Source of the DNA: Actinomycetota bacterium
GTDB lineage: Bacteria; Actinomycetota; Actinomycetes; Mycobacteriales; Mycobacteriaceae
NCBI GenBank assembly: GCA_040752555.1
Contig: JBFMGT010000001.1
Location: 402,352 to 466,351 of the forward strand
Length of the DNA stretch: 64,000 nucleotides
Direction of reading: 5' to 3'
The position numbers and the translations under genes are program-made. Below the pieces are notes generated by a model that had not been told where the DNA came from, ran no database searches, and saw nothing but the letters and a program-made list of their open reading frames with translations. This document shows positions 21,440-30,477 of this stretch, one piece after another. How positions within the stretch are numbered: position 1 is the first letter of the stretch; every line of letters starts with the position of its first letter.

Positions 21440-21520
21440 CGCTCGACTATGGCGGCAGCCGGACTGGAGGACTAGTGGCAAGACTGCCGTTATTCGTCAA
21501 AAACATGCCATCATGGCGCC

Positions 21521-22489
21521 ATGTCCACCCACCGCGTCGCCGTGCTCCTGCTCGAGCCCGTCATCGGCTTCGACGCGGCGATTGCCCCGACGCTGTTCGG
21601 CGCGGCCACCGGCTGGGACGGGGCCCCGCTGTACGAAGTGGTCACCTGCGGCCTGACGACCGCCCCGGTGCCCAGCACCACCGGGTTCGCGATGATTCCG
21701 ACTGCGGGAGCCGAGGCCCTCGCCACCGCAGACACCGTGGTGGTCCCCGGCACGCGATTGGAGCCCGCCCGCGTCGACGGCCGGCTCGAACCCCAGGTCG
21801 CCGCGGCGCTGGCCGCCATTCCGCCGAACGCCCGCGTCGTCTCGATCTGCACCGGCGCCTTCGTGCTCGCCGCGGCGGGGCTCCTCGACGGCCGACCCGC
21901 CACGACGCACTGGCAGCACGCCGACGCGCTACGCGCGCTGTACCCGGAGGTGCTGGTCGACGAGAACGTGCTGTTCGTCGACGACGGCGACGTGCTGACC
22001 TCCGCCGGGCTTGCCGCAGGAATCGACCTGTGTCTGCACATCATTCGGCGCGACCACGGTACGAAGGTCGCGAACGCCGTCGCCCGCCACTGTGTCGTCC
22101 CGCCGTGGCGGGAAGGCGGGCAGGCTCAGTTCATCGAAAGTCAGGTTCCAGTCCAGGATTTCGCGTCTACGGCGGCGACCAGGGCGTGGGCGGCCCAGAA
22201 TCTGCACGAGCCGTTGACGATCGGCCGGCTCGCCGAGCACGCCGGCATGAGCACGCGCACGTTCATCCGCCGCTTCCGCGAGGAGACGGGCCAGCCGCCC
22301 GGCGAATGGCTGCGCACCCGCCGCATCGACCGCGCCCGCGAACTCCTCGAGGGCCACGACCTCAGCGTCGACGAGGTCGCGCGACGGTCAGGGCTGGGTT
22401 CCGGCGGCAATCTCCGGCACCACCTGCGGCGCGGTCTGGGCATGTCGCCGTCGAGTTATCGCAAGGTCTTCGCCGGCCACGAGCACTAG
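21521..22489 (+). CDS. GlxA-type AraC regulator (DJ-1/PfpI + AraC HTH)
   Basis: SICTGAF, ATTHW, TSAGLAAGIDL, MSTRTFIRRF. Confidence 0.93.
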   Translation: MSTHRVAVLLLEPVIGFDAAIAPTLFGAATGWDGAPLYEVVTCGLTTAPVPSTTGFAMIPTAGAEALATADTVVVPGTRLEPARVDGRLEPQVAAALAAIPPNARVVSICTGAFVLAAAGLLDGRPATTHWQHADALRALYPEVLVDENVLFVDDGDVLTSAGLAAGIDLCLHIIRRDHGTKVANAVARHCVVPPWREGGQAQFIESQVPVQDFASTAATRAWAAQNLHEPLTIGRLAEHAGMSTRTFIRRFREETGQPPGEWLRTRRIDRARELLEGHDLSVDEVARRSGLGSGGNLRHHLRRGLGMSPSSYRKVFAGHEH

Positions 22490-22747
22490 CCCCTCGTGCG
22501 GTCTGAAGCGCGGTTGATCACGAAGAATCAACCTGAAGGAGCCGGCACGAGCACGCGATCGACGGCGCTGCGTGCATTGGTGTGGGTACCGCATGAAGGA
22601 GTGGCCATGGCCGAATCGATCGTTCTCGGCGATCACGCTGCTCGGTGAGAGCGGGGGTGTCGGTCGGCTAGTGTTGATCGGCCGGCATTTCCGGCCGAGT
22701 ACATGCCCGTCGATGAAAGCCGACGACGCGCTTGGGCAAGAGTCGAA

Positions 22748-23392
22748 TTACTCCGGACCGTAGTGGTAGAACGCCGACACCACGTCCTCCACGGTCAGGT
22801 AGGTATAGCCGCCTTCGTCAGCCATTGTCTTCGCCTCGGACGCACCGGCGACGTCGGTCGGGTGGGTCACGGAAACCAGTGCGCAGAACGCGGATGCCGG
22901 CGGGGACGCGCCGGTCAGTGCCGACAGCGCCAAGGCGAGATCAGCCGGAGTCGATGACGGAGTGGTCTGCGCGGCCACAGGGAGAACGTGCCCCGGCCGG
23001 ACGAAGTCACCCGGCCTGCTGTCGGAATTGCTCAGCCGGCGGATGGTTTCCGCGCGGTCTGTCGCTGAGATCCCAGTAGTCACACCGGTCTTGGCGTCGA
23101 CGGCTACGTGCGCCTGCGGGCACAGCGAGTCGGAGTCGACCGGCATGGGCGGAATGTCGAGCGCCCGCATACGGCCGGTATCCAGCGCTACATGGAGCAG
23201 GCCTGAGCCGTGCCGGATCAGTGAAGCGATTCCTCGGGGCGTTGCCATTCTCGCGTCCACCATGATGAACGCCCACGGTGTCGCTCCCACGATCACGGGC
23301 TCACCACGACGCAGTGCTTCGAGGGCCTTTAAGACCGTTGGCAAGGGCAGATCGCGAAGTCCGTGGGGTATCTCGTCAACGACGCTGGTCAT
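22748..23392 (-). CDS. RibB (DHBP synthase)-like protein, catalytically degenerate
   Basis: IRHGSG, TTGISATDR, DFVRPGHVLP conserved; DDEDRENEGD and RxGHTE motifs absent. Confidence 0.8.
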   Translation of the reverse strand: MTSVVDEIPHGLRDLPLPTVLKALEALRRGEPVIVGATPWAFIMVDARMATPRGIASLIRHGSGLLHVALDTGRMRALDIPPMPVDSDSLCPQAHVAVDAKTGVTTGISATDRAETIRRLSNSDSRPGDFVRPGHVLPVAAQTTPSSTPADLALALSALTGASPPASAFCALVSVTHPTDVAGASEAKTMADEGGYTYLTVEDVVSAFYHYGPE

Positions 23393-23964
23393 GAGACGAG
23401 GGACGCCCAGTGGTCACGGTCCAGCCGCGGGAACTTCGACCGGAAGTAGACGAGTGGGTGCGAGTGCGGGTCCTCGACCGATCCGAGCGACAGGACATGG
23501 GCGGTGATGATCTCATGATCGCCACCGGGGTAGCACTCATCTATCTCGCACTCGACCCAGGCCTGACAGTTGGCAATCACCGGCGCTTGGGTGCAGTTGC
23601 CTGGGGACCATTGCACTTCAGCAAATTTCGGACCACCCGAGATGGCGAACGACCTCGCTATGGCCTCCTGCCGACTCGACAGAATGTTGACGACGAATTT
23701 GCCGGTCGCGCGGATCGCCGGCCAACTGGACGACCCACGATCGATCGATATCAGCACCATCGTCGGGTCGAGTGACAGCGCGATGAACGACTGAATCGTC
23801 AGACCCAGCGGCCCGTGCGGACTCACGCCGGTCACGATCGCCACCCCCGTCGGGAAGTGACCGACGACGTCGCGAAACTTCGCGGTCACCTGCTCATCCT
23901 CGCTGCGCTCTGATGCGGTCGGCGGTTTCGATGGCGTCGTTTTCGGGTGCGTCCGAGTTGCCAT
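23389..23964 (-). CDS. Flavin reductase family protein (start uncertain, 23964 or 23889)
   Basis: FRDVVGHFPTGVAIVT, SLDP, GGDHEI, PLVYFRS. Confidence 0.92.
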   Translation of the reverse strand: MATRTHPKTTPSKPPTASERSEDEQVTAKFRDVVGHFPTGVAIVTGVSPHGPLGLTIQSFIALSLDPTMVLISIDRGSSSWPAIRATGKFVVNILSSRQEAIARSFAISGGPKFAEVQWSPGNCTQAPVIANCQAWVECEIDECYPGGDHEIITAHVLSLGSVEDPHSHPLVYFRSKFPRLDRDHWASLVS

Positions 23965-25393
23965 ACGGTCGGACGAACACCATATAGAGCGCCCCTGCGA
24001 CCAACACCACAGCCAACCCGATGAGAACGATCCACCTGTCGATGAAACCCAGGCTCGGATCGCCCGGTAGCGCAAGCAGAATCATCGCGAAGACGCCATA
24101 GATGAGCGCCAGGACATTGATCAGTAGGCCCGCCCCTCCCAGCGACCACGGTCCGGCCGGTCGCCAGCCCTTGATGCGCTGTCGCAGAGCGGCGAACACA
24201 ACCATCTGGAAGCACACATAGATTCCCAGCACTGCGAAGGCCGTGACCTGCACCGCGCTGTCCGGCTTGAAGTACAGCCACACAGTGATCAGCATCGGTG
24301 CCGAGCATGCGGCGATCATCGCGTTGCGGGGTACCGATCCACTACCAGCGACCTCCTGGTGCAGCTTGGCGAGCCACGTGCTGCCGGGCAGCATGTTGTC
24401 CCTTGCGAAGCTGAAGAGCAATCGGCTGAGCGCTGCCTGTTGCGACAACGCAGCGGACAGGAAGATGGTCGCGGCGACGACGAGTAGAAGCGTCATGCCG
24501 AGTTCGCCGGTACTGCCACGGACGATAGCCGGAATGGGATCTGCCACTCCACCATCCACGATCTCTTGTAGGTTGGGTGCTGCCAACACGAAACCCGCGT
24601 ACGCGATGAAGGCGGCGACAAGACCGATCACGATCGTGAGGATCATCGCGACCGGGATGCGGCGTTCCGGGTCCTTCACCTCTTCGGCGACATCGCCGCA
24701 CGCCTCGAATCCATAGAACTGCCAGAGACCGACCAGGGCAGCGAGGGTGAACGCCCAAAGATACGAGCCCTCGCCCGCGACGCCGAGTGTATCGAAGAGG
24801 ACGCCAAACGAATTGCGCCGTTCGAAGAGGAGGAGGAAGAGTCCGAGTGCCACCACTCCGATCAATTCGCAGTAGAAGCCGATGCGTACGACGAAAGCCA
24901 ACGTCTTGGTGCCGGTGCTGTTCAACACGAATGCCACGGCAAGCAGACCCAGGCCGATCGCCAGACCTGTCACGTTCGTCAGCTCTACGTGAAAAAGGTT
25001 CGCGAGGAATGGAACTGCGAACTGAACCACTGCTGTCGTGGTGGCGATGAGCGCCGCGATGTAGATCCACGCGGCCATCCAGGCGTAACGGCGTCCCCAC
25101 AGACGCCGCGCCCAGGGATAGATGCCACCGGTGATCGGATACTGCGAGACGATCTCTCCGAAGACCAGTGCGACGAGGAGTTGTCCGGCGGCGACGATCG
25201 GGAACCACCAGATCGATGGCGGCCCCGCAGTCGCGAGGCCCAGCGCGAAGATGGACAGCACGCCGGCGCCGGGCGAGAGGTATGTGAAGCCGAGTGAGAA
25301 GTTGGAGACCAGTCCGATGCTGCGCTTGAAACCTTCCTGTGGAACCGAATCCGGCTTGATCGCCGGTTTTGGTGGCATGACTGACTCTGACAT
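23894..25393 (-). CDS. APC family amino acid/amine permease
   Basis: FSLGFTYLSP, GGIYPWA, YGFEACGDVAEEVKDP. Confidence 0.9.
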   Translation of the reverse strand: MSESVMPPKPAIKPDSVPQEGFKRSIGLVSNFSLGFTYLSPGAGVLSIFALGLATAGPPSIWWFPIVAAGQLLVALVFGEIVSQYPITGGIYPWARRLWGRRYAWMAAWIYIAALIATTTAVVQFAVPFLANLFHVELTNVTGLAIGLGLLAVAFVLNSTGTKTLAFVVRIGFYCELIGVVALGLFLLLFERRNSFGVLFDTLGVAGEGSYLWAFTLAALVGLWQFYGFEACGDVAEEVKDPERRIPVAMILTIVIGLVAAFIAYAGFVLAAPNLQEIVDGGVADPIPAIVRGSTGELGMTLLLVVAATIFLSAALSQQAALSRLLFSFARDNMLPGSTWLAKLHQEVAGSGSVPRNAMIAACSAPMLITVWLYFKPDSAVQVTAFAVLGIYVCFQMVVFAALRQRIKGWRPAGPWSLGGAGLLINVLALIYGVFAMILLALPGDPSLGFIDRWIVLIGLAVVLVAGALYMVFVRPYGNSDAPENDAIETADRIRAQRG

Positions 25394-25488
25394 ATGAGGT
25401 GCTTCCTTCCCTCGGGCAAGGCATCGGCATCTACATGGTCGCTGGCCACGACACGCTCGCGGTCGAGGAGATAGCGGCTGCGCAACAA

Positions 25489-25506
25489 TTTGGACGTTTG
25501 TAGAAA
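25489..25506. promoter_or_regulatory. Putative operator copy 1 TTTGGACGTTTGTAGAAA
   Basis: 16/18 identical to reverse complement of 25630-25647. Confidence 0.6.
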
Positions 25507-25629
25507 CTCTCAAGCGGGCTCAAACTAACCCCGGGTTGCGTGCGTGTCAACAGCTGGCGGTGAAAAGAGCTGCGGCTACAGGTCTTGACACCCTCGTTCA
25601 GCCGTCCTACTGTGGCTGCACACTGCAAA

Positions 25630-25647
25630 TTTCTACAAATGTACAAA
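25630..25647. promoter_or_regulatory. Putative operator copy 2 TTTCTACAAATGTACAAA
   Basis: Quasi-palindrome in the AT-rich divergent promoter region. Confidence 0.6.
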
Positions 25648-25762
25648 CTTGCGGATGTGGCTCATGTGGTGGCCGATGAAACCAAACACGTTGTGGGACA
25701 GAGCAATCATTTTGTCGTGCGGCAGAACTGCGCTATGTCCCAATGAAAGGATGATGACCGCG

Positions 25763-26842
25763 ATGAAGTTCGGCCTCTTCAACATCCCCTACTCGCGCGA
25801 TTACGCAAACGGAAGGCGTTCGGCCAAAGAAGTGATCGACTGGGACTTGCAGCTCACACAGTGGGCCGACGAATTCGGTTGGGAAGAAGTCTTCTTCGCC
25901 GAACACTACACTCTCGGCGGTGAACCGAGCCCTGCGCCCGACGCGATGATCGCGGCCGCATCGCAACTCACCAGCAACGTCCGCCTGGGTGCGGCGGCGC
26001 ACCTGCTGGCCTACCACAATCCGATCTCGTTGGCGCACCGCATCATGTGGCTCGACCACATGACCGGTGGTCGTTACATCGCTGGATTCGCGCCCGGCGC
26101 CTTCCCGAGCGACGCCCAACTCTTCAACACCGGGAAGAAGAATCCGCAGATGATGGCCGAGGCGATGGACATCGTCGAGGCCGTTTGGACCAGAACCGGT
26201 CCGTTCCGCATCGAGGGTGAATTCTGGACAGTCGACATGCCCGCCTACAGCGACAGCATCCACGGGCCGCACCTGAGGCCGAAGCAGGGCCGCATCCCCG
26301 TGATCATGACGGGCATGCAAGCCAGCTCACCGACGTTGACGACAGCCGGAGCGCGCGGATATCTGCCTATGAGCCAGCAGGTCCACAACAGTGTGCTCAA
26401 GGAGCACTGGCGAACTTATGCGGAGGCGGCCGAACAAGCAGGGCACGCTGCCGATCGCTCGCAGTGGCGCGTGTGCCGCGACGTACTGGTGGCGGACAGC
26501 GACGAGGAGGCCCGCGACGCGTACCTCAACGGCGCCATGGGCGATCTGTGGGGCAACTACAACATCCCCACATTCATCGAACTCGGAATCGGTGATCTTC
26601 TATCAGGCGGCACCGTGCCCGCGCAGGATCTCGACGTCGAGTGGATGGTCGATAATTTCCATATCGTCGGATCGCCGCAAAGCGTCGCCGACAAGATCAC
26701 CGAAATGTACGAGGAAGTAGGAGGTTTCGGAACCTTGATCTCCTTTGGTCACGACTACGCAGCGGACCCGGACGTGTACCGGCGAAGCTTCGAGCTCATC
26801 GGGACCAAGGTCACCGAACTCGTCGCCCACCTGACCGCATGA
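25763..26842 (+). CDS. Luciferase-like (LLM) flavin-dependent monooxygenase
   Basis: MKFGLF, FFAEHY, VRLG..AHLLAYHNP. Confidence 0.92.
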   Translation: MKFGLFNIPYSRDYANGRRSAKEVIDWDLQLTQWADEFGWEEVFFAEHYTLGGEPSPAPDAMIAAASQLTSNVRLGAAAHLLAYHNPISLAHRIMWLDHMTGGRYIAGFAPGAFPSDAQLFNTGKKNPQMMAEAMDIVEAVWTRTGPFRIEGEFWTVDMPAYSDSIHGPHLRPKQGRIPVIMTGMQASSPTLTTAGARGYLPMSQQVHNSVLKEHWRTYAEAAEQAGHAADRSQWRVCRDVLVADSDEEARDAYLNGAMGDLWGNYNIPTFIELGIGDLLSGGTVPAQDLDVEWMVDNFHIVGSPQSVADKITEMYEEVGGFGTLISFGHDYAADPDVYRRSFELIGTKVTELVAHLTA

Positions 26843-27609
26843 TCAGCTCTGAGTTGTTGGCCGGCAAAGTCGTCTTCGTTTCGGGCGGTGCGAGGGGTAT
26901 GGGTGCCGCCCACGTTCGCAGGATGGCCGAAGAGGGGGCGCGAGTTCACTTCGGTGACATCACCGACGAACTCGGCGAGAAGTATTGCGCTGAGTTGTAC
27001 ACAGTGGGATTGGACGTCACCTACCACCACCTCGATGTCACAGACTCGTCGAACTGGGCCGGCGTCATGGCCAGCATCAGTGAGGCCGAGGGCAGACTCG
27101 ATGCGCTGGTCAACAATGCCGGGGTTCTGGACCTCGCAGGCCTAGACGATGCGACCGAAGAATCGTGGCGCGCTACCCTCGACGTCAACCAGACGGGCGT
27201 GTTCCTTGGTGCCAAAGCTGCGCTTTCGCTGCTGCGCCGGGCGGCCTCGCCCTCGATCGTCAACGTGTCGTCCATTTTCGGTCTGGTCGGTGCCACCGGA
27301 TATGTCGCTTACACGGCGTCGAAAGGTGCCGTGACGCTGCTGACCAAGACGCTGGCCTTCACATATGGGCCAGAGGGCGTCCGATGCAACAGCATTCACC
27401 CCGGATACATCGATACGCCGATGCTGGAAGAGGAACTGTCCGGGTTGCCGGCCGGTTCGGCGGATGCGGTGATCGCGCAGATTCCTCTGCGTCGGTTCGC
27501 CAATCCCGCAGAGGTGTCGGAGATCGTCGTGTTTCTCGTGTCTGACCGTGCCTCTTACGTCTCCGGCGCCGAGATCGTCATCGACGGAGGTCTACTTGCC
27601 GGGCGTTGA
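26839..27609 (+). CDS. SDR dehydrogenase
   Basis: SGGARGMG, NNAG, YTASK, NSIHPGYIDTPM. Confidence 0.93.
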   Translation: MISSELLAGKVVFVSGGARGMGAAHVRRMAEEGARVHFGDITDELGEKYCAELYTVGLDVTYHHLDVTDSSNWAGVMASISEAEGRLDALVNNAGVLDLAGLDDATEESWRATLDVNQTGVFLGAKAALSLLRRAASPSIVNVSSIFGLVGATGYVAYTASKGAVTLLTKTLAFTYGPEGVRCNSIHPGYIDTPMLEEELSGLPAGSADAVIAQIPLRRFANPAEVSEIVVFLVSDRASYVSGAEIVIDGGLLAGR

Positions 27610-27643
27610 ACCACCTGCGCCCAAACCAAAATCGGAGGCAGTC

Positions 27644-28495
27644 ATGTTTGGCCTGGAAGGCAAGGTCGCGCTGATCACCGGAGCGGCACGCGGGCAGGGT
27701 CGCTCGCACGCTGTGCGCCTCGCCGAGGCGGGAGCTTCGATCGTCGCGCTGGACATCTGCACCCAGATCCCCACGGTGCCCTATCCGATGGGGAGTCGCG
27801 ATGACCTAGACCAGACGGCACAAGTCGTCCGCGACTTGGGCGGCAGCATCGTGACGCGAGAAGCGGATGTGCGGAGCGCTGGTGACCTCGATGCAGCCGT
27901 CGAGGCGGCCGTCCGCGAGTTCGGCGGTATCGACATCGTGGTGGCCAACGCGGGCACGGTCAACGGCATCGCTCCGATGTGGGAACTGTCGGAGGATCAG
28001 GTTCGCGATCAATTCGATGTCAATCTCATGGGCGTTTGGCGCACGATCAAGGCCACGGTCCCGCAATTGATACGGCAGCGGCGTGGCGGTGCGGTAATCC
28101 TGATCAGCTCGATCTCCGGTCTGGTTGCCGAATTGAACGTCGGTCACTACTCGGCGTCGAAGCACGGGGTCAACGGACTGATGCGAACGCTGGCTGCTGA
28201 ACTGGCGCCGTACTCGATTCGGGTGAACAGTGTGAACCCCACCAACGTCAACACGAAGATGATCGACAACGACGCCTACAACCGCCTGTTTTCTGGCGGC
28301 AAAGACAATGCCACACAGCAAGATTCACTGGCTGCGCTGCAGGCCATGAACGGGCTGCCAGTGCCGTTCGTCGAGCCGGAGGACATCAGCAACGCGGTCC
28401 TCTATCTCGCCTCGCACGCGGGTCGGTACGTCACCGGTATCACACACGTGGTCGACGCCGGAGCCCTGGCGCCGTTCAAAGCGCCGCAGCTCTGA
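27644..28495 (+). CDS. Mycofactocin-coupled SDR oxidoreductase
   Basis: TGAARGQGRSHAVRLA, insertion DIC...VPYPM, YSASKHG. Confidence 0.88.
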   Translation: MFGLEGKVALITGAARGQGRSHAVRLAEAGASIVALDICTQIPTVPYPMGSRDDLDQTAQVVRDLGGSIVTREADVRSAGDLDAAVEAAVREFGGIDIVVANAGTVNGIAPMWELSEDQVRDQFDVNLMGVWRTIKATVPQLIRQRRGGAVILISSISGLVAELNVGHYSASKHGVNGLMRTLAAELAPYSIRVNSVNPTNVNTKMIDNDAYNRLFSGGKDNATQQDSLAALQAMNGLPVPFVEPEDISNAVLYLASHAGRYVTGITHVVDAGALAPFKAPQL

Positions 28496-28552
28496 CGCTA
28501 GGTGTTCGTCGTCACCAGTCCCTGGAATGGGGAGCGCACCGGCTGCGGTAAC

Positions 28553-29212
28553 GTGACGACGGTGAAGAGGTCGGGTAGTCGCTCGGAAGCGACGGCGACG
28601 GCGCTCGTCGAGGCGGCACTCGAGATCGTTCGAGAATCCGGTGTCAAGAGCGTCACCCATCGCAAAGTGTGCAGCCGGGCCGGTGTGGCGCTGGGGAGCA
28701 GCACCTACCACTACGAGAACCTCGACGCACTGATCCTCGACGCGTTCGCCCATTACGTCGAGACCGTCTCGGTGAAGTACGAGGACTATTTCTCGCGCGT
28801 CACGTGTGACGAGGAGCTGATCGACGCGATGCTCCGCGTGACGACGATCCTCACCACCGACGTCGGCAACGCAATTCTCGACTGGGAGCTTCTCGCTGAG
28901 GCAGGCCGCGAGCAGGCCTACCGCGAATTGGCACAACGATGGTCACACCGGGCTCGCTCCGCAATCGAGGCATACGTGTCGAAGCGGACAGCGTTCATGC
29001 TGGAGACGATCTGGGACGGGACCACCATTCAACGGGTGCTCAACGGAACTCAACTCAGCGATGCCGACCTCCGCGACCTGATCGGCGCCGCACTCGCGCT
29101 CGACACCGAGCGCAAGTACCCGGCCAGTGCGGCCACGCCACAAACGCGATCGCGCAAGGCGCCGGCGCCGAGGAGCAGGTCCCGTTCATCGCGCCAGTCG
29201 TCGGAGGTCTGA
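28553..29212 (+). CDS. TetR family regulator
   Basis: VTHRKVCSRAGVALGSSTYHY. Confidence 0.88.
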   Translation: MTTVKRSGSRSEATATALVEAALEIVRESGVKSVTHRKVCSRAGVALGSSTYHYENLDALILDAFAHYVETVSVKYEDYFSRVTCDEELIDAMLRVTTILTTDVGNAILDWELLAEAGREQAYRELAQRWSHRARSAIEAYVSKRTAFMLETIWDGTTIQRVLNGTQLSDADLRDLIGAALALDTERKYPASAATPQTRSRKAPAPRSRSRSSRQSSEV

Positions 29213-29848
29213 GGCCGCTTCGAGCACATCACCCACGAGCGGGTAGAGGGTGTCGTGTTCGGCCACCGGTGCGGGCTCGGTGCCGCCCGCCATGTGCACG
29301 CGGTTGTGCCACCACACGGGCATGCCGGCGTTGCCTGCTCCGGCGATGTCGTAGCGCGATCCTGCGACGAAGAGCACGCGATGAGGTTCGAGCCCAAGCT
29401 GCTGCAACGCGAGAACGTACGGCGCGGGTTGTGGTTTGTAGGCGCCGGCCGTTTCGGCTGTGACGATGACGTCGAGAGGGACGGTGAGCCGTGAGGCCGC
29501 GAGGTGCCCCAGATGTTCTGAGCAGTTGGTGACCACTCCGAGCTTGACGCCAGCCGAGGCCAACTCCGTCAGCACGTCAGGCGCCTCAGTCCAGGGCTGC
29601 AATTCTGCCCAGCGGGCGGACAGGCCGGCAGCCAAGCCGCGATCGAGATGCAGTGCCTCTGCCGCATCGGCGACCAAGGTCTCGTAGTCTCGATACGAGC
29701 CCTGCCCATAGGTGATCTCGAGATACTTGTTCCGCCAGAGCCTTCCGGTACGAGGGTCTCCTGCGACGTCGTTCCACACGGTCCACGAGTCGAGCAGTGC
29801 GGTGAGCAGATCGAAGAGCACCGCGTCGTAACGCGCGGACCGACTCAC
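29186..29848 (-). CDS. HAD superfamily hydrolase (haloacid dehalogenase-like)
   Basis: VLFDL, VVTN, YKP, FVAGS..D motifs; GTGA overlap with the upstream stop. Confidence 0.88.
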   Translation of the reverse strand: MSRSARYDAVLFDLLTALLDSWTVWNDVAGDPRTGRLWRNKYLEITYGQGSYRDYETLVADAAEALHLDRGLAAGLSARWAELQPWTEAPDVLTELASAGVKLGVVTNCSEHLGHLAASRLTVPLDVIVTAETAGAYKPQPAPYVLALQQLGLEPHRVLFVAGSRYDIAGAGNAGMPVWWHNRVHMAGGTEPAPVAEHDTLYPLVGDVLEAASDLRRLAR

Positions 29849-30477
29849 GACCATTCGGCGAGCACCCGCATCTTGCCGGCCTTGACCGCCGCGTCGCGCC
29901 GCAGCTTCTTCAATTCGGTCGCGAACGCGTTGCGCTCGTTGCTTTGGATGTTCAATGGCAGCTCCAGCGCCTGCAGCAGCTTCGCTTCCAGATGCCAGGG
30001 CTCGGGGTGCAGAACCCATGACACGGCGACGTTCTCGGCCATCCACTGCGTGAGGATCGCTTCCCCGCCGGCGAACGTCTGGCGTTTGCCCGACCCCACC
30101 CGGCGCAGCGCGAATCCGAGTTCCCCGCCCAGCAGCACCCCCAAAGATTTGCGCAGGGTCGAGCCGTCCGCCCCGGCATTGCCCGCGCCGAAGTGGTAGC
30201 GGATGCGCTTGCGCAGGTCCTGCGGAGTCTGCGGCTTGCCGTCGGCTCGCGGCGGGCCTGGGCTCACGCCGACGTACAGCAGCGTCCAGCCATCGCGCTC
30301 CTCGCAGCCGGACACGTCGATCCCGCCGGGGATCTCCCGGAACCACCACCCGTGCGCACCGGCCTTGGCGGGCACCGGGTCGGCCTCGGAGAACACCTCG
30401 TTGCGCGTATACCGCTGCGCGGCAAGGAAATGTGCGATCACGTCCGCGGTGCGCTTCTCGGACATCCTGCCAGCCAT
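29845..30477 (-). CDS. GIY-YIG-like nuclease family protein
   Basis: GAHGWW...LLYVGVS...LRKRIRYH...STLRKSLG...E...LPLN. Confidence 0.65.
   Translation of the reverse strand: MAGRMSEKRTADVIAHFLAAQRYTRNEVFSEADPVPAKAGAHGWWFREIPGGIDVSGCEERDGWTLLYVGVSPGPPRADGKPQTPQDLRKRIRYHFGAGNAGADGSTLRKSLGVLLGGELGFALRRVGSGKRQTFAGGEAILTQWMAENVAVSWVLHPEPWHLEAKLLQALELPLNIQSNERNAFATELKKLRRDAAVKAGKMRVLAEWS

What the first reader, a model, noticed from the sequence alone, without database searches (positions are those of the whole stretch)
22748..23392. RibB pseudoenzyme coupled to a flavin reductase
The DHBP-synthase scaffold is clear (IRHGSG, TTG.SA.DR, RPGH). The metal/substrate-binding acidic loop DDEDRENEGD, the RxGHTE motif and the CE glutamate (here CAL) are missing. 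It overlaps the flavin reductase stop (ATGA) in a monooxygenase cluster. This suggests a repurposed non-catalytic role (scaffold, sensor, or heterodimer modulating flavin supply) rather than riboflavin synthesis.
Basis: partly seen in the sequence, partly recalled or inferred. Interest (0 to 1): 0.6.

Follow-up and report, generated by a model that had tools for sequence, protein, structure and literature searches.

The report
Dead RibB paralogue in flavin-monooxygenase module
A copy of the riboflavin-pathway enzyme RibB has lost its own catalytic residues but keeps, under purifying selection, the two loops it would lend to a partner subunit. It always travels with a flavin reductase and a luciferase-like monooxygenase, so it is a conserved non-enzymatic helper whose job is still unknown.

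Summary
A 214-aa minus-strand ORF (22748-23392) has a confident DHBP-synthase fold, but it lacks the acidic metal loop, the catalytic Cys, RxGHTE and the CE glutamate. Its ATG overlaps the stop codon of an HpaC/HsaB-type flavin reductase.

It is not decaying. dN/dS is 0.18-0.21, the same as the reductase. About 45 stand-alone homologues share the same losses.

Among positions conserved in intact enzymes, the family keeps 2 of 26 in the own-subunit (cis) active-site elements. It keeps 10 of 10 in loops 4 and 5, which canonical RibB donates in trans to its dimer partner.

The gene stays with the same module (LLM monooxygenase, flavin reductase, two SDRs, TetR, sometimes an APC permease) through several rearrangements, in 9 of 10 related mycobacterial loci and on a Rhodococcus plasmid. 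Only 3% of genomes in the genus carry it.

It belongs to a large degenerate clade that also holds RibA1/MelJ (Rv1940) of the mel2 locus. Intact RibBA paralogues are likewise coupled to flavin reductases, and catalytic loss probably happened more than once.

The function is inferred: a non-catalytic partner protein. A prozyme-like heterodimer with housekeeping RibBA is the most novel reading not excluded. The scan has not reported this family on other DNA.

The parts
22748..23392 (-). Stand-alone RibB-like (DHBP-synthase fold) protein, 214 aa. The cis active-site elements are lost and trans loops 4 and 5 are invariant. It is the last gene of the operon.
23389..23889 (-). HpaC/HsaB-type NAD(P)H:flavin reductase (PF01613). 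The likely start is GTG 23889, behind a GAGGA and 4 nt after the permease stop; an alternative ATG lies at 23964. Its TGA stop overlaps the RibB-like ATG.
23894..25513 (-). APC-family permease (AA_permease_2), first gene of the three-gene operon; exact start not determined.
25649..26842 (+). Luciferase-like monooxygenase (PF00296), divergently transcribed. No NCBIfam subfamily reaches its cutoff. The start is uncertain; homology begins near 25718.
26839..27609 (+). Classical SDR (glucose 1-dehydrogenase / hydroxycyclohexanecarboxylate dehydrogenase-like).
27548..28495 (+). Mycofactocin-coupled SDR (TIGR03971, 372 bits, cutoff 300). The true start is probably near 27620-27650.
28502..29212 (+). 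TetR-family regulator of the module.

Best explanation
The gene encodes a catalytically dead paralogue of DHBP synthase (RibB). It can no longer bind ribulose 5-phosphate or metal, so it does not make the riboflavin precursor. Purifying selection keeps it as a dedicated non-catalytic component of a mobile catabolic module built around a two-component flavin system (PF01613 flavin reductase plus luciferase-like monooxygenase, two SDRs, TetR, sometimes a permease). It is co-translated with the reductase. It most likely still dimerises through the preserved RibB interface (loops 4 and 5) and acts by protein-protein contact with the reductase/monooxygenase pair, for example by stabilising the reductase or by controlling hand-over of reduced flavin. 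Shown here: the fold, the loss of cis catalytic residues, the retention of trans loops, purifying selection, module linkage, translational overlap, and family membership with RibA1/MelJ. Inferred: lack of activity, dimerisation, and the reductase as the binding partner.
For: The fold is intact. All own-subunit catalytic and substrate-binding elements are lost across about 45 homologues, while 10 of 10 trans-loop positions are kept (loop definitions from PMC5228156). dN/dS is 0.178 and 0.213 against the 83% and 64% orthologues, close to the flavin reductase at 0.19 and 0.16. LLM, SDR1, mycofactocin SDR, TetR, reductase and RibB-like recur together in 9 of 10 same-genus loci and on a Rhodococcus opacus plasmid, although the order varies: co-directional and overlapping, divergent, or 3-5 kb apart. 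Across 72 DHBPS-like genes in 15 genomes, a reductase lies within 150 bp of 0 of 16 housekeeping RibBA, 16 of 24 intact extra RibBA and 11 of 32 degenerate copies, and within 5 kb of 20 of 32 degenerate copies. Where it is adjacent on the same strand it is almost always just upstream, often with an ATGA or GTGA overlap. This genome has only 5 reductase genes in 6.2 Mb. The same linkage is seen in Pseudonocardia thermophila. Degeneration probably arose more than once (tree; AU test p = 0.022), which suggests the ancestral paralogue already had a second, non-catalytic role. RibA1, in the same clade, cannot replace RibA2 experimentally (PMC11302143).
Against: There is no direct evidence of binding to the reductase or the monooxygenase. 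No reductase-RibB fusion was seen in 72 sampled genes or in the top 120 longer homologues. In two related loci the reductase is coupled to the LLM instead, and the RibB-like gene sits 3-5 kb away. 11 of 32 sampled degenerate copies have no detectable reductase within about 7 kb. For intact paralogues, reductase coupling could be purely metabolic (co-expression of flavin synthesis), so linkage in the degenerate forms could partly be inherited. The invariant trans loops are better explained by the heterodimer rival. The protein is the fastest-evolving member of the module (41-45% identity where the LLM is 74-76%).
Confidence: 0.45

Rival explanations
1. Prozyme-like heterodimer. The dead subunit pairs with the DHBPS domain of housekeeping RibBA. 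It supplies loops 4 and 5 in trans to complete one active site. This would raise or lower riboflavin-precursor synthesis when the flavin-consuming module is switched on.
For: In canonical RibB each active site uses loops 1-3 of its own subunit plus loops 4' and 5' of the partner (PMC5228156). The family keeps 10 of 10 trans-loop positions, including functional Thr106, Ser109, Asp112 and His135, and only 2 of 26 cis positions. The same cis-lost, trans-kept pattern recurs in lineages that appear independent, including RibA1/MelJ. The genome has exactly one competent partner, RibBA on contig 13. Paralogues commonly keep the ability to heteromerise; that is general knowledge, not tested here.
Against: Identity to RibBA is only about 35%. 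Interface compatibility is untested. Loops 4 and 5 may be kept simply because they form the homodimer interface. One degenerate copy (L189) has RPGQ in place of RPGH. This reading does not by itself explain the tight link to the reductase.
Confidence: 0.25
2. Neofunctionalised protein. The remodelled pocket binds a new ligand (a flavin or a pathway intermediate). The protein would then act as a carrier, a sensor or a metal-independent enzyme of the catabolic pathway.
For: The clade has its own conserved residues on the former cis side that are not conserved in intact enzymes: Arg74, Pro81, Ala97, Ser174, Pro178, Ala182 and Glu186, at 96-100%. Loops 4 and 5 could still act as a lid. The module is otherwise enzymatic.
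Against: The phosphate-binding Arg and Thr, both metal ligands and the acid-base residues are all gone, and loop 1 is shortened. No other family or fold match suggests a new chemistry. Its fast evolution relative to the enzymes of the module is unusual for a catalytic component.
Confidence: 0.2
3. It is still a working, if weak, DHBP synthase that supplements riboflavin supply for the monooxygenase, like luxH in Vibrio lux operons.
For: Intact RibBA paralogues coupled to reductases exist in related genomes. The lux-rib precedent is discussed in PMC1793995.
Against: The equivalents of V. cholerae Glu39, Glu41 and His154, whose mutation abolishes activity, are all absent. So are Arg38, the Arg and Thr of RxGHTE, and the CE glutamate. 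AtRIBA3, which lacks such residues, has no DHBPS activity. The score is below half the RibB equivalog cutoff.
Confidence: 0.03
4. It is a decaying remnant with no function, kept only by chance or by polar effects in the operon.
For: It is the fastest-evolving gene of the module and is found in only 3% of genomes in the genus.
Against: dN/dS is about 0.2 in several independent pairs. ORFs are full length with no stops in all 12 genomes. 20 positions are invariant across 45 sequences averaging 43% column identity. The gene is retained in the module through rearrangements and across genera.
Confidence: 0.03

Closest known systems
RibA1 / MelJ (Rv1940) of the mycobacterial mel2 locus (Rv1936-Rv1941)
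   Same: Same degenerate clade in the tree (SH-aLRT 96). The DHBPS domain has lost loop 1, the Cys and the His-Thr of HTE, and keeps TGISAxDR and RPGH. A PF01613 flavin reductase lies just upstream, an SDR just downstream and an LLM in the locus (L184-L187). The resemblance of the locus to lux genes was noted in 2007 (PMC1793995). RibA1 is non-essential and cannot replace RibA2 (PMC11302143, PMC13748933).
   Different: RibA1 has two domains, with a truncated GTP cyclohydrolase II remnant, and it keeps the CE glutamate. Identity to the window protein is only 33-37%. The mel2 locus has other partners (an epoxide hydrolase and a ferredoxin-type oxygenase). The window protein has a single domain and sits in a different module with a permease and a mycofactocin SDR.
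LuxH (RibB) next to LuxG in Vibrio/Photobacterium lux-rib operons
   Same: A RibB homologue is genetically linked to a flavin reductase and a luciferase-family monooxygenase. The intact reductase-coupled RibBA paralogues found here (16 of 24) follow the same logic.
   Different: From literature knowledge, not tested here: LuxH is an active enzyme and LuxG is a Fre-type reductase. Here the reductase is the HpaC/PF01613 type and the RibB copy is catalytically dead.
AtRIBA3 (plants) and RibBX (Proteobacteria): RibBA-family proteins with one dead domain
   Same: Members of the same enzyme family keep a degenerate domain under selection. AtRIBA3 lacks DHBPS residues and has no DHBPS activity (PMC3509567). 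In RibBX it is the cyclohydrolase domain that is dead (PDB 6mnz among the fold hits; earlier scan note e1-927479).
   Different: Those proteins keep one active domain, so they are still riboflavin enzymes. The window protein has no active domain left and is not in a riboflavin gene context.
Canonical DHBP synthase (E. coli or V. cholerae RibB; M. tuberculosis RibA2 N-domain)
   Same: Same fold (TM about 0.8) and 29-33% identity; loops 4 and 5 are identical in motif.
   Different: Loop 1 is deleted, and the conserved residues of loop 2, RxGHTE, loop 3 and the catalytic Cys are replaced. It fails the equivalog cutoff.
Trypanosomatid 'prozymes' (dead paralogues that activate AdoMetDC or deoxyhypusine synthase as heterodimers)
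   Same: Analogy only, recalled from the literature: a catalytically dead paralogue keeps the parts needed to complete the partner's active site.
   Different: Different fold and pathway. No heterodimer has been shown here.

Membership tests
DHBP synthase (RibB, EC 4.1.99.12) | DHBP_synthase fold / Pfam PF00926 match | tested here: met
   119.5 bits, E 1.6e-34. AF2 model at TM about 0.8 to RibB structures.
DHBP synthase (RibB, EC 4.1.99.12) | Acidic loop 1 with the two metal-binding Glu and the phosphate-binding Arg (V. cholerae Arg38, Glu39, Glu41) | tested here: not met
   The loop is shortened by 4 residues and reads G-ATPWAF. 0 of 8 conserved positions are kept across the clade.
DHBP synthase (RibB, EC 4.1.99.12) | RxGHTE motif (metal-ligand His, phosphate-binding Arg and Thr) and the CE glutamate | tested here: not met
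   RRPGHTE is replaced by T---PAD and CE by CA. 0 of 5 and 0 of 5 conserved positions are kept.
DHBP synthase (RibB, EC 4.1.99.12) | Score above the curated equivalog cutoff (TIGR00506) | tested here: not met
   84.4 bits against a cutoff of 177.45.
DHBP synthase (RibB, EC 4.1.99.12) | Converts ribulose 5-phosphate to DHBP and formate; complements a ribB mutant | not testable with these tools
   Needs an enzyme assay or complementation.
RibA1/MelJ-type degenerate RibBA paralogues (mel2-like loci) | Degenerate DHBPS domain that keeps TGISAxDR and RPGH | tested here: met
RibA1/MelJ-type degenerate RibBA paralogues (mel2-like loci) | C-terminal GTP cyclohydrolase II-like domain | tested here: not met
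   The protein is 214 aa and ends after the DHBPS fold. There is no PF00925 match and no GCHII tblastn hit at the locus.
RibA1/MelJ-type degenerate RibBA paralogues (mel2-like loci) | PF01613 flavin reductase directly upstream, with an LLM and an SDR in the locus | tested here: met
RibA1/MelJ-type degenerate RibBA paralogues (mel2-like loci) | Same phylogenetic clade | tested here: met
   A 51-row clade with SH-aLRT 96 holds both. This is a quick tree with long branches, so support is moderate.
lux-rib type linkage (LuxG-LuxH) | RibB homologue linked to a flavin reductase and a luciferase-family monooxygenase | tested here: met
lux-rib type linkage (LuxG-LuxH) | Catalytically competent RibB and a Fre/LuxG-type reductase | tested here: not met
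   The active site is dead. The reductase is PF01613 HpaC/HsaB-like.
Prozyme-type pseudoenzyme (dead paralogue completing a partner's active site) | Trans-acting active-site elements kept while cis elements are lost | tested here: met
   10 of 10 trans positions against 2 of 26 cis positions.
Prozyme-type pseudoenzyme (dead paralogue completing a partner's active site) | Physical heterodimer with the active paralogue and a change in its activity | not testable with these tools
   No multimer prediction or biochemistry is available.

The most novel reading that the evidence does not exclude
The stand-alone dead RibB, and by extension RibA1/MelJ of M. tuberculosis, is a prozyme-like subunit. It heterodimerises with the DHBPS domain of housekeeping RibBA and donates its perfectly conserved loops 4 and 5 in trans. 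Induction of a flavin reductase/monooxygenase module would thereby directly retune riboflavin-precursor synthesis. This would be a regulatory pseudoenzyme mechanism not described for the riboflavin pathway.
Probability: 0.25. Interest if true: 0.8.

Novelty: new variant of a known kind. Interest (0 to 1): 0.6.

Why it matters
Published work treats RibA1 (Rv1940/MelJ) as a putative riboflavin enzyme whose role is unclear, because it cannot replace RibA2. This analysis places it, together with the window protein, in a large actinobacterial family of RibB paralogues. These paralogues are catalytically dead, under purifying selection, and tied to flavin reductase/luciferase-like monooxygenase modules. 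The asymmetric pattern (own-subunit half of the active site lost, partner-donated half invariant) turns 'unknown function' into two concrete, cheap experiments: does it bind the reductase, or does it heterodimerise with RibBA? It also shows that current 'DHBP synthase' annotations for hundreds of actinobacterial genes are probably wrong. That matters for metabolic reconstruction and for riboflavin-pathway drug-target reasoning in mycobacteria.

Tried and rejected
- The search for related loci failed with the 45-sequence alignment because it found no conserved stretch.
- With the single protein, the search for related loci was swamped by canonical RibB through the shared RPGH pattern and returned no close relative.
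- A family-wide genome search with the degenerate-clade profile hit housekeeping RibBA in all 301 genomes and did not discriminate.
- The 'relatives' search found no orthologue in 24 same-genus genomes.
- A search of 151 Pseudonocardiaceae genomes at E 1e-45 found nothing because the threshold was too strict.
- The search among longer proteins showed no flavin reductase-RibB fusion.
- The promoter and terminator scan of 22400-25750 found nothing above chance.
- Rejected: residual DHBPS activity, because every residue shown to be essential elsewhere is missing.
- Rejected: neutral decay, on dN/dS and conservation.
- Rejected: simple inheritance of gene order as the only reason for linkage, because the module is rearranged yet keeps the gene.
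- Not attempted: a mirror-tree co-evolution test of RibB-like against reductase, because 11 related loci are too few and not independent.

Full report
**The object.** The finding's coordinates hold a 214-aa ORF on the minus strand (22748-23392).
- It matches Pfam DHBP_synthase over the whole model (119.5 bits, E 1.6e-34).
- It reaches only 84 bits on the NCBIfam RibB equivalog, whose cutoff is 177.
- Its best solved relatives are the M. tuberculosis RibA2 DHBPS domain and enterobacterial RibB (E 4e-23 to 2e-19).
- An AlphaFold2 model built on 45 homologues is confident (pLDDT 92.6, pTM 0.88). It superposes on V. cholerae, E. coli, Salmonella and M. tuberculosis RibB at TM about 0.8.
- So the scaffold is intact.

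**What is lost and what is kept.** The reference was this genome's own canonical RibBA on contig 13 (282 bits on PF00926).
- The acidic loop DDEDRENEGD is shortened by four residues and reads G-ATPWAF.
- The catalytic Cys is His, RRPGHTE is T---PAD, and CE is CA.
- IRHGSG, TTGISATDR and RPGH are present.
- In V. cholerae RibB, Glu39, Glu41 and His154 are the catalytic residues whose mutation abolishes activity, and Arg38 binds the substrate phosphate (PMC5228156).
- AtRIBA3, which lacks such residues, has no DHBPS activity in vitro or in complementation (PMC3509567).
- Loss of DHBP-synthase activity here is therefore a strong inference, but it was not assayed.

**The loss is asymmetric.** PMC5228156 describes each RibB active site as built from loops 1, 2 and 3 of its own subunit plus loops 4' and 5' of the dimer partner. 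I counted positions at least 90% conserved in 40 intact enzymes, then asked how many the 45-member degenerate stand-alone clade keeps:

| Region | Kept / conserved in intact enzymes |
|---|---|
| Loop 1 (cis) | 0 / 8 |
| Catalytic Cys (cis) | 0 / 1 |
| Loop 2 (cis) | 2 / 7 |
| RxGHTE (cis) | 0 / 5 |
| Loop 3 (cis) | 0 / 5 |
| Loop 4, TGISAxDR (trans) | 6 / 6 |
| Loop 5, RPGHV (trans) | 4 / 4 |
| Rest of the domain | 10 / 35 |

The family has discarded its own half of the active site and kept, invariant, the half it would lend to a partner subunit.

**It is a family, not a decaying copy.**
- A search of 5.8 billion proteins found 475 relatives.
- All stand-alone forms of about 200-255 aa inspected, from Mycobacterium/Mycolicibacterium, Rhodococcus and Amycolatopsis, share the same losses and the same retained motifs.
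- Twenty positions are invariant across 45 sequences whose mean column identity is 43%.
- The clade also has its own conserved residues: Arg74, Pro81, Ala97, Ser174, Pro178, Ala182 and Glu186.
- Nei-Gojobori dN/dS against the 83% and 64% orthologues is 0.178 and 0.213.
- For comparison, the flavin reductase gives 0.19 and 0.16, the LLM 0.08 and 0.06, and the permease 0.08.
- Five other pairs within the degenerate clade give 0.09-0.36.
- Neutral decay is excluded.

**Genomic setting.**
- The gene is the last of a tight three-gene operon. The APC permease occupies 25513-23894.
- The PF01613 flavin reductase follows. It probably starts at GTG 23889, 4 nt after the permease stop and behind a GAGGA. 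Its TGA overlaps the RibB-like ATG.
- On the divergent strand lie a luciferase-like monooxygenase, a classical SDR, a mycofactocin-coupled SDR (TIGR03971, 372 bits) and a TetR regulator.

**Distribution.**
- Clade members occur in 12 of 401 genomes of the genus, counting this one. One match is in genome G604, flagged unpublished, and only the count rests on it.
- So it is a patchy accessory trait.

**Module conservation.**
- In 9 of 10 fetched loci the same gene set (LLM, SDR1, mycofactocin SDR, TetR, reductase, RibB-like) is present. The tenth is cut by a contig end.
- The arrangement changes. Reductase and RibB-like are co-directional and overlapping in the three closest loci. They are divergent, 150-210 bp apart, in five loci.
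- In two loci they are 3-5 kb apart, and there the reductase is coupled to the LLM instead.
- The same gene set sits on Rhodococcus opacus PD630 plasmid pRoPD630_2, alongside a class III aminotransferase and a cupin.
- Retention through rearrangement and across genera argues for a functional tie to the module, not inherited gene order.

**The wider pattern.** I classified 72 DHBPS-like genes from 15 genomes of the GTDB family, each with about 7 kb of flank on either side:

| Class | n | Reductase within 150 bp | Within 5 kb |
|---|---|---|---|
| Housekeeping RibBA (81-98% identical to the canonical one) | 16 | 0 | not counted |
| Catalytically intact extra RibBA paralogues | 24 | 16 (all just upstream, same strand) | not counted |
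| Degenerate copies | 32 | 11 | 20 |

- Among adjacent same-strand cases, the reductase is upstream in all but a few, and 16 of 27 upstream junctions show a possible ATGA or GTGA overlap.
- This genome has only five PF01613 genes in 6.2 Mb. By my estimate, a reductase would lie within 5 kb of a random gene by chance about 1% of the time.
- Pseudonocardia thermophila, in another order, shows the same picture. It has one housekeeping copy without a reductase. Its four degenerate or partly degenerate copies each lie next to a reductase or an LLM.
- A reductase-to-RibB(A) gene pair is therefore an old and widespread actinobacterial feature. It is analogous to luxG-luxH in lux operons.

**Phylogeny (IQ-TREE quick, LG+G4, 103 sequences).**
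- Housekeeping RibBA forms one clade (SH-aLRT 99).
- A 51-row degenerate clade (SH-aLRT 96) contains the window protein, all sampled stand-alone forms and the same-genus two-domain proteins.
- Other degenerate lineages (L163/P0089/P0095/P0085 and L188/L189) are nested inside the intact, reductase-coupled clade.
- Forcing all degenerate rows into one clade costs 70.7 log-likelihood units (AU p = 0.022). The group was defined after seeing the tree and long branches are involved, so this is moderate support for more than one independent loss.
- Repeated loss of catalysis followed by long retention suggests the ancestral paralogue already had a second, non-catalytic role.

**Link to known biology.**
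- The same-genus two-domain proteins are RibA1/MelJ orthologues. One is 100% identical to an M. lacus record and 74% to the M. marinum protein, and sequences labelled M. tuberculosis are in the same set.
- Their DHBPS domains lack loop 1, have Arg for the Cys and PAE for HTE.
- Their cyclohydrolase domain keeps the three zinc cysteines but lacks the whole C-terminal catalytic half.
- The mel2 locus (Rv1936-Rv1941) and its resemblance to lux genes, with MelJ compared to LuxH, were described in 2007 (PMC1793995).
- RibA1 is non-essential and cannot substitute for RibA2 (PMC11302143 and PMC13748933).
- No paper in the searched library describes these proteins as catalytically dead RibB paralogues coupled to flavin reductases, or the cis/trans asymmetry.
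- The scan itself has only noted the converse case, RibBX, elsewhere.

**Interpretation.**
- Firmly supported: a conserved pseudoenzyme of the RibB fold, selected, co-translated with a flavin reductase and tied to an LLM monooxygenase module.
- The mechanism is inferred. I favour a non-catalytic partner of the reductase/monooxygenase pair (0.45), because of the pervasive reductase coupling.
- The invariant trans loops fit at least as well with a prozyme-like heterodimer with housekeeping RibBA (0.25).
- The clade-specific residues on the former cis side leave room for a new ligand pocket (0.20).
- Residual DHBPS activity and neutral decay are each unlikely (about 0.03).
- No reductase-RibB fusion was found to support a physical complex.

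**Limits.**
- No multimer prediction was available.
- The tree is a quick search.
- Reductase neighbours were detected with a single tblastn query at E 1e-6, so some may have been missed.
- One genome (G069) and one (G604) are flagged unpublished. Only tallies include them.

Noticed in passing
L132, L147, L156-L159, L165, L169, L170, L172, L178, L180-L183 (genomes of the same GTDB family): Catalytically intact extra RibBA paralogues (43-64% identical to housekeeping RibBA) sit directly downstream of a PF01613 flavin reductase, often with an ATGA or GTGA overlap. L147 carries two such pairs in tandem. This actinobacterial counterpart of luxG-luxH does not appear in the searched literature.
   Followed up: partly
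P0296, P0304, P0313 (RibA1/MelJ orthologues); L184-L187: RibA1/MelJ appears doubly degenerate. The DHBPS site is dead, and the GTP cyclohydrolase II domain lacks its C-terminal catalytic half while keeping the zinc cysteines. Recent papers still call it a monofunctional GTP cyclohydrolase II.
   Followed up: partly
one search hit list; L184-L187: MelJ orthologues at 66-80% identity occur in many species (M. lacus, M. riyadhense, M. decipiens, M. gordonae, M. simiae, Mycolicibacterium elephantis and others). Of the four same-genus loci read here, all have an SDR just downstream and two (L186, L187) have a flavin reductase just upstream. [quoted passage not shown]
   Followed up: no
P0202 (Rhodococcus sp. 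NCIMB 12038, 520 aa), P0216 (428 aa): A DHBP_synthase-like domain is fused to a flavokinase domain (PF00926 + PF01687). This is another unusual pairing of the RibB fold with flavin metabolism.
   Followed up: no
window 21475-22506 (+): A 343-aa ORF with no Pfam or NCBIfam match lies between the MFS transporter and the RibB-like gene. It is conserved at 66% next to the same MFS gene in the closest relative (L207), but there it is separated from the module by about 3.7 kb. It therefore marks the module boundary.
   Followed up: partly
window 24001-26000: G+C drops to 0.603 over the permease and the divergent promoter region, against 0.65-0.69 in the flanks. Together with presence in 3% of genomes and a copy on a plasmid, this fits horizontal acquisition of the module.
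   Followed up: partly
L189 (G164:C1): A two-domain degenerate copy keeps GHTE but has RPGQ in place of the otherwise invariant RPGH. It is the only exception seen to retention of loop 5.
   Followed up: no
L045 (Rhodococcus opacus PD630 plasmid pRoPD630_2, 93.5-101.9 kb): The plasmid copy of the module also has a class III aminotransferase and a cupin protein next to a split APC permease. This hints that the module's substrate is an amine.
   Followed up: no
window 29186-30349 (-): A 387-aa ORF has a C-terminal haloacid dehalogenase type II/HAD domain (TIGR01428, 103 bits, below cutoff) and an unexplained N-terminal extension of about 170 aa. It overlaps the end of the TetR gene.
   Followed up: no
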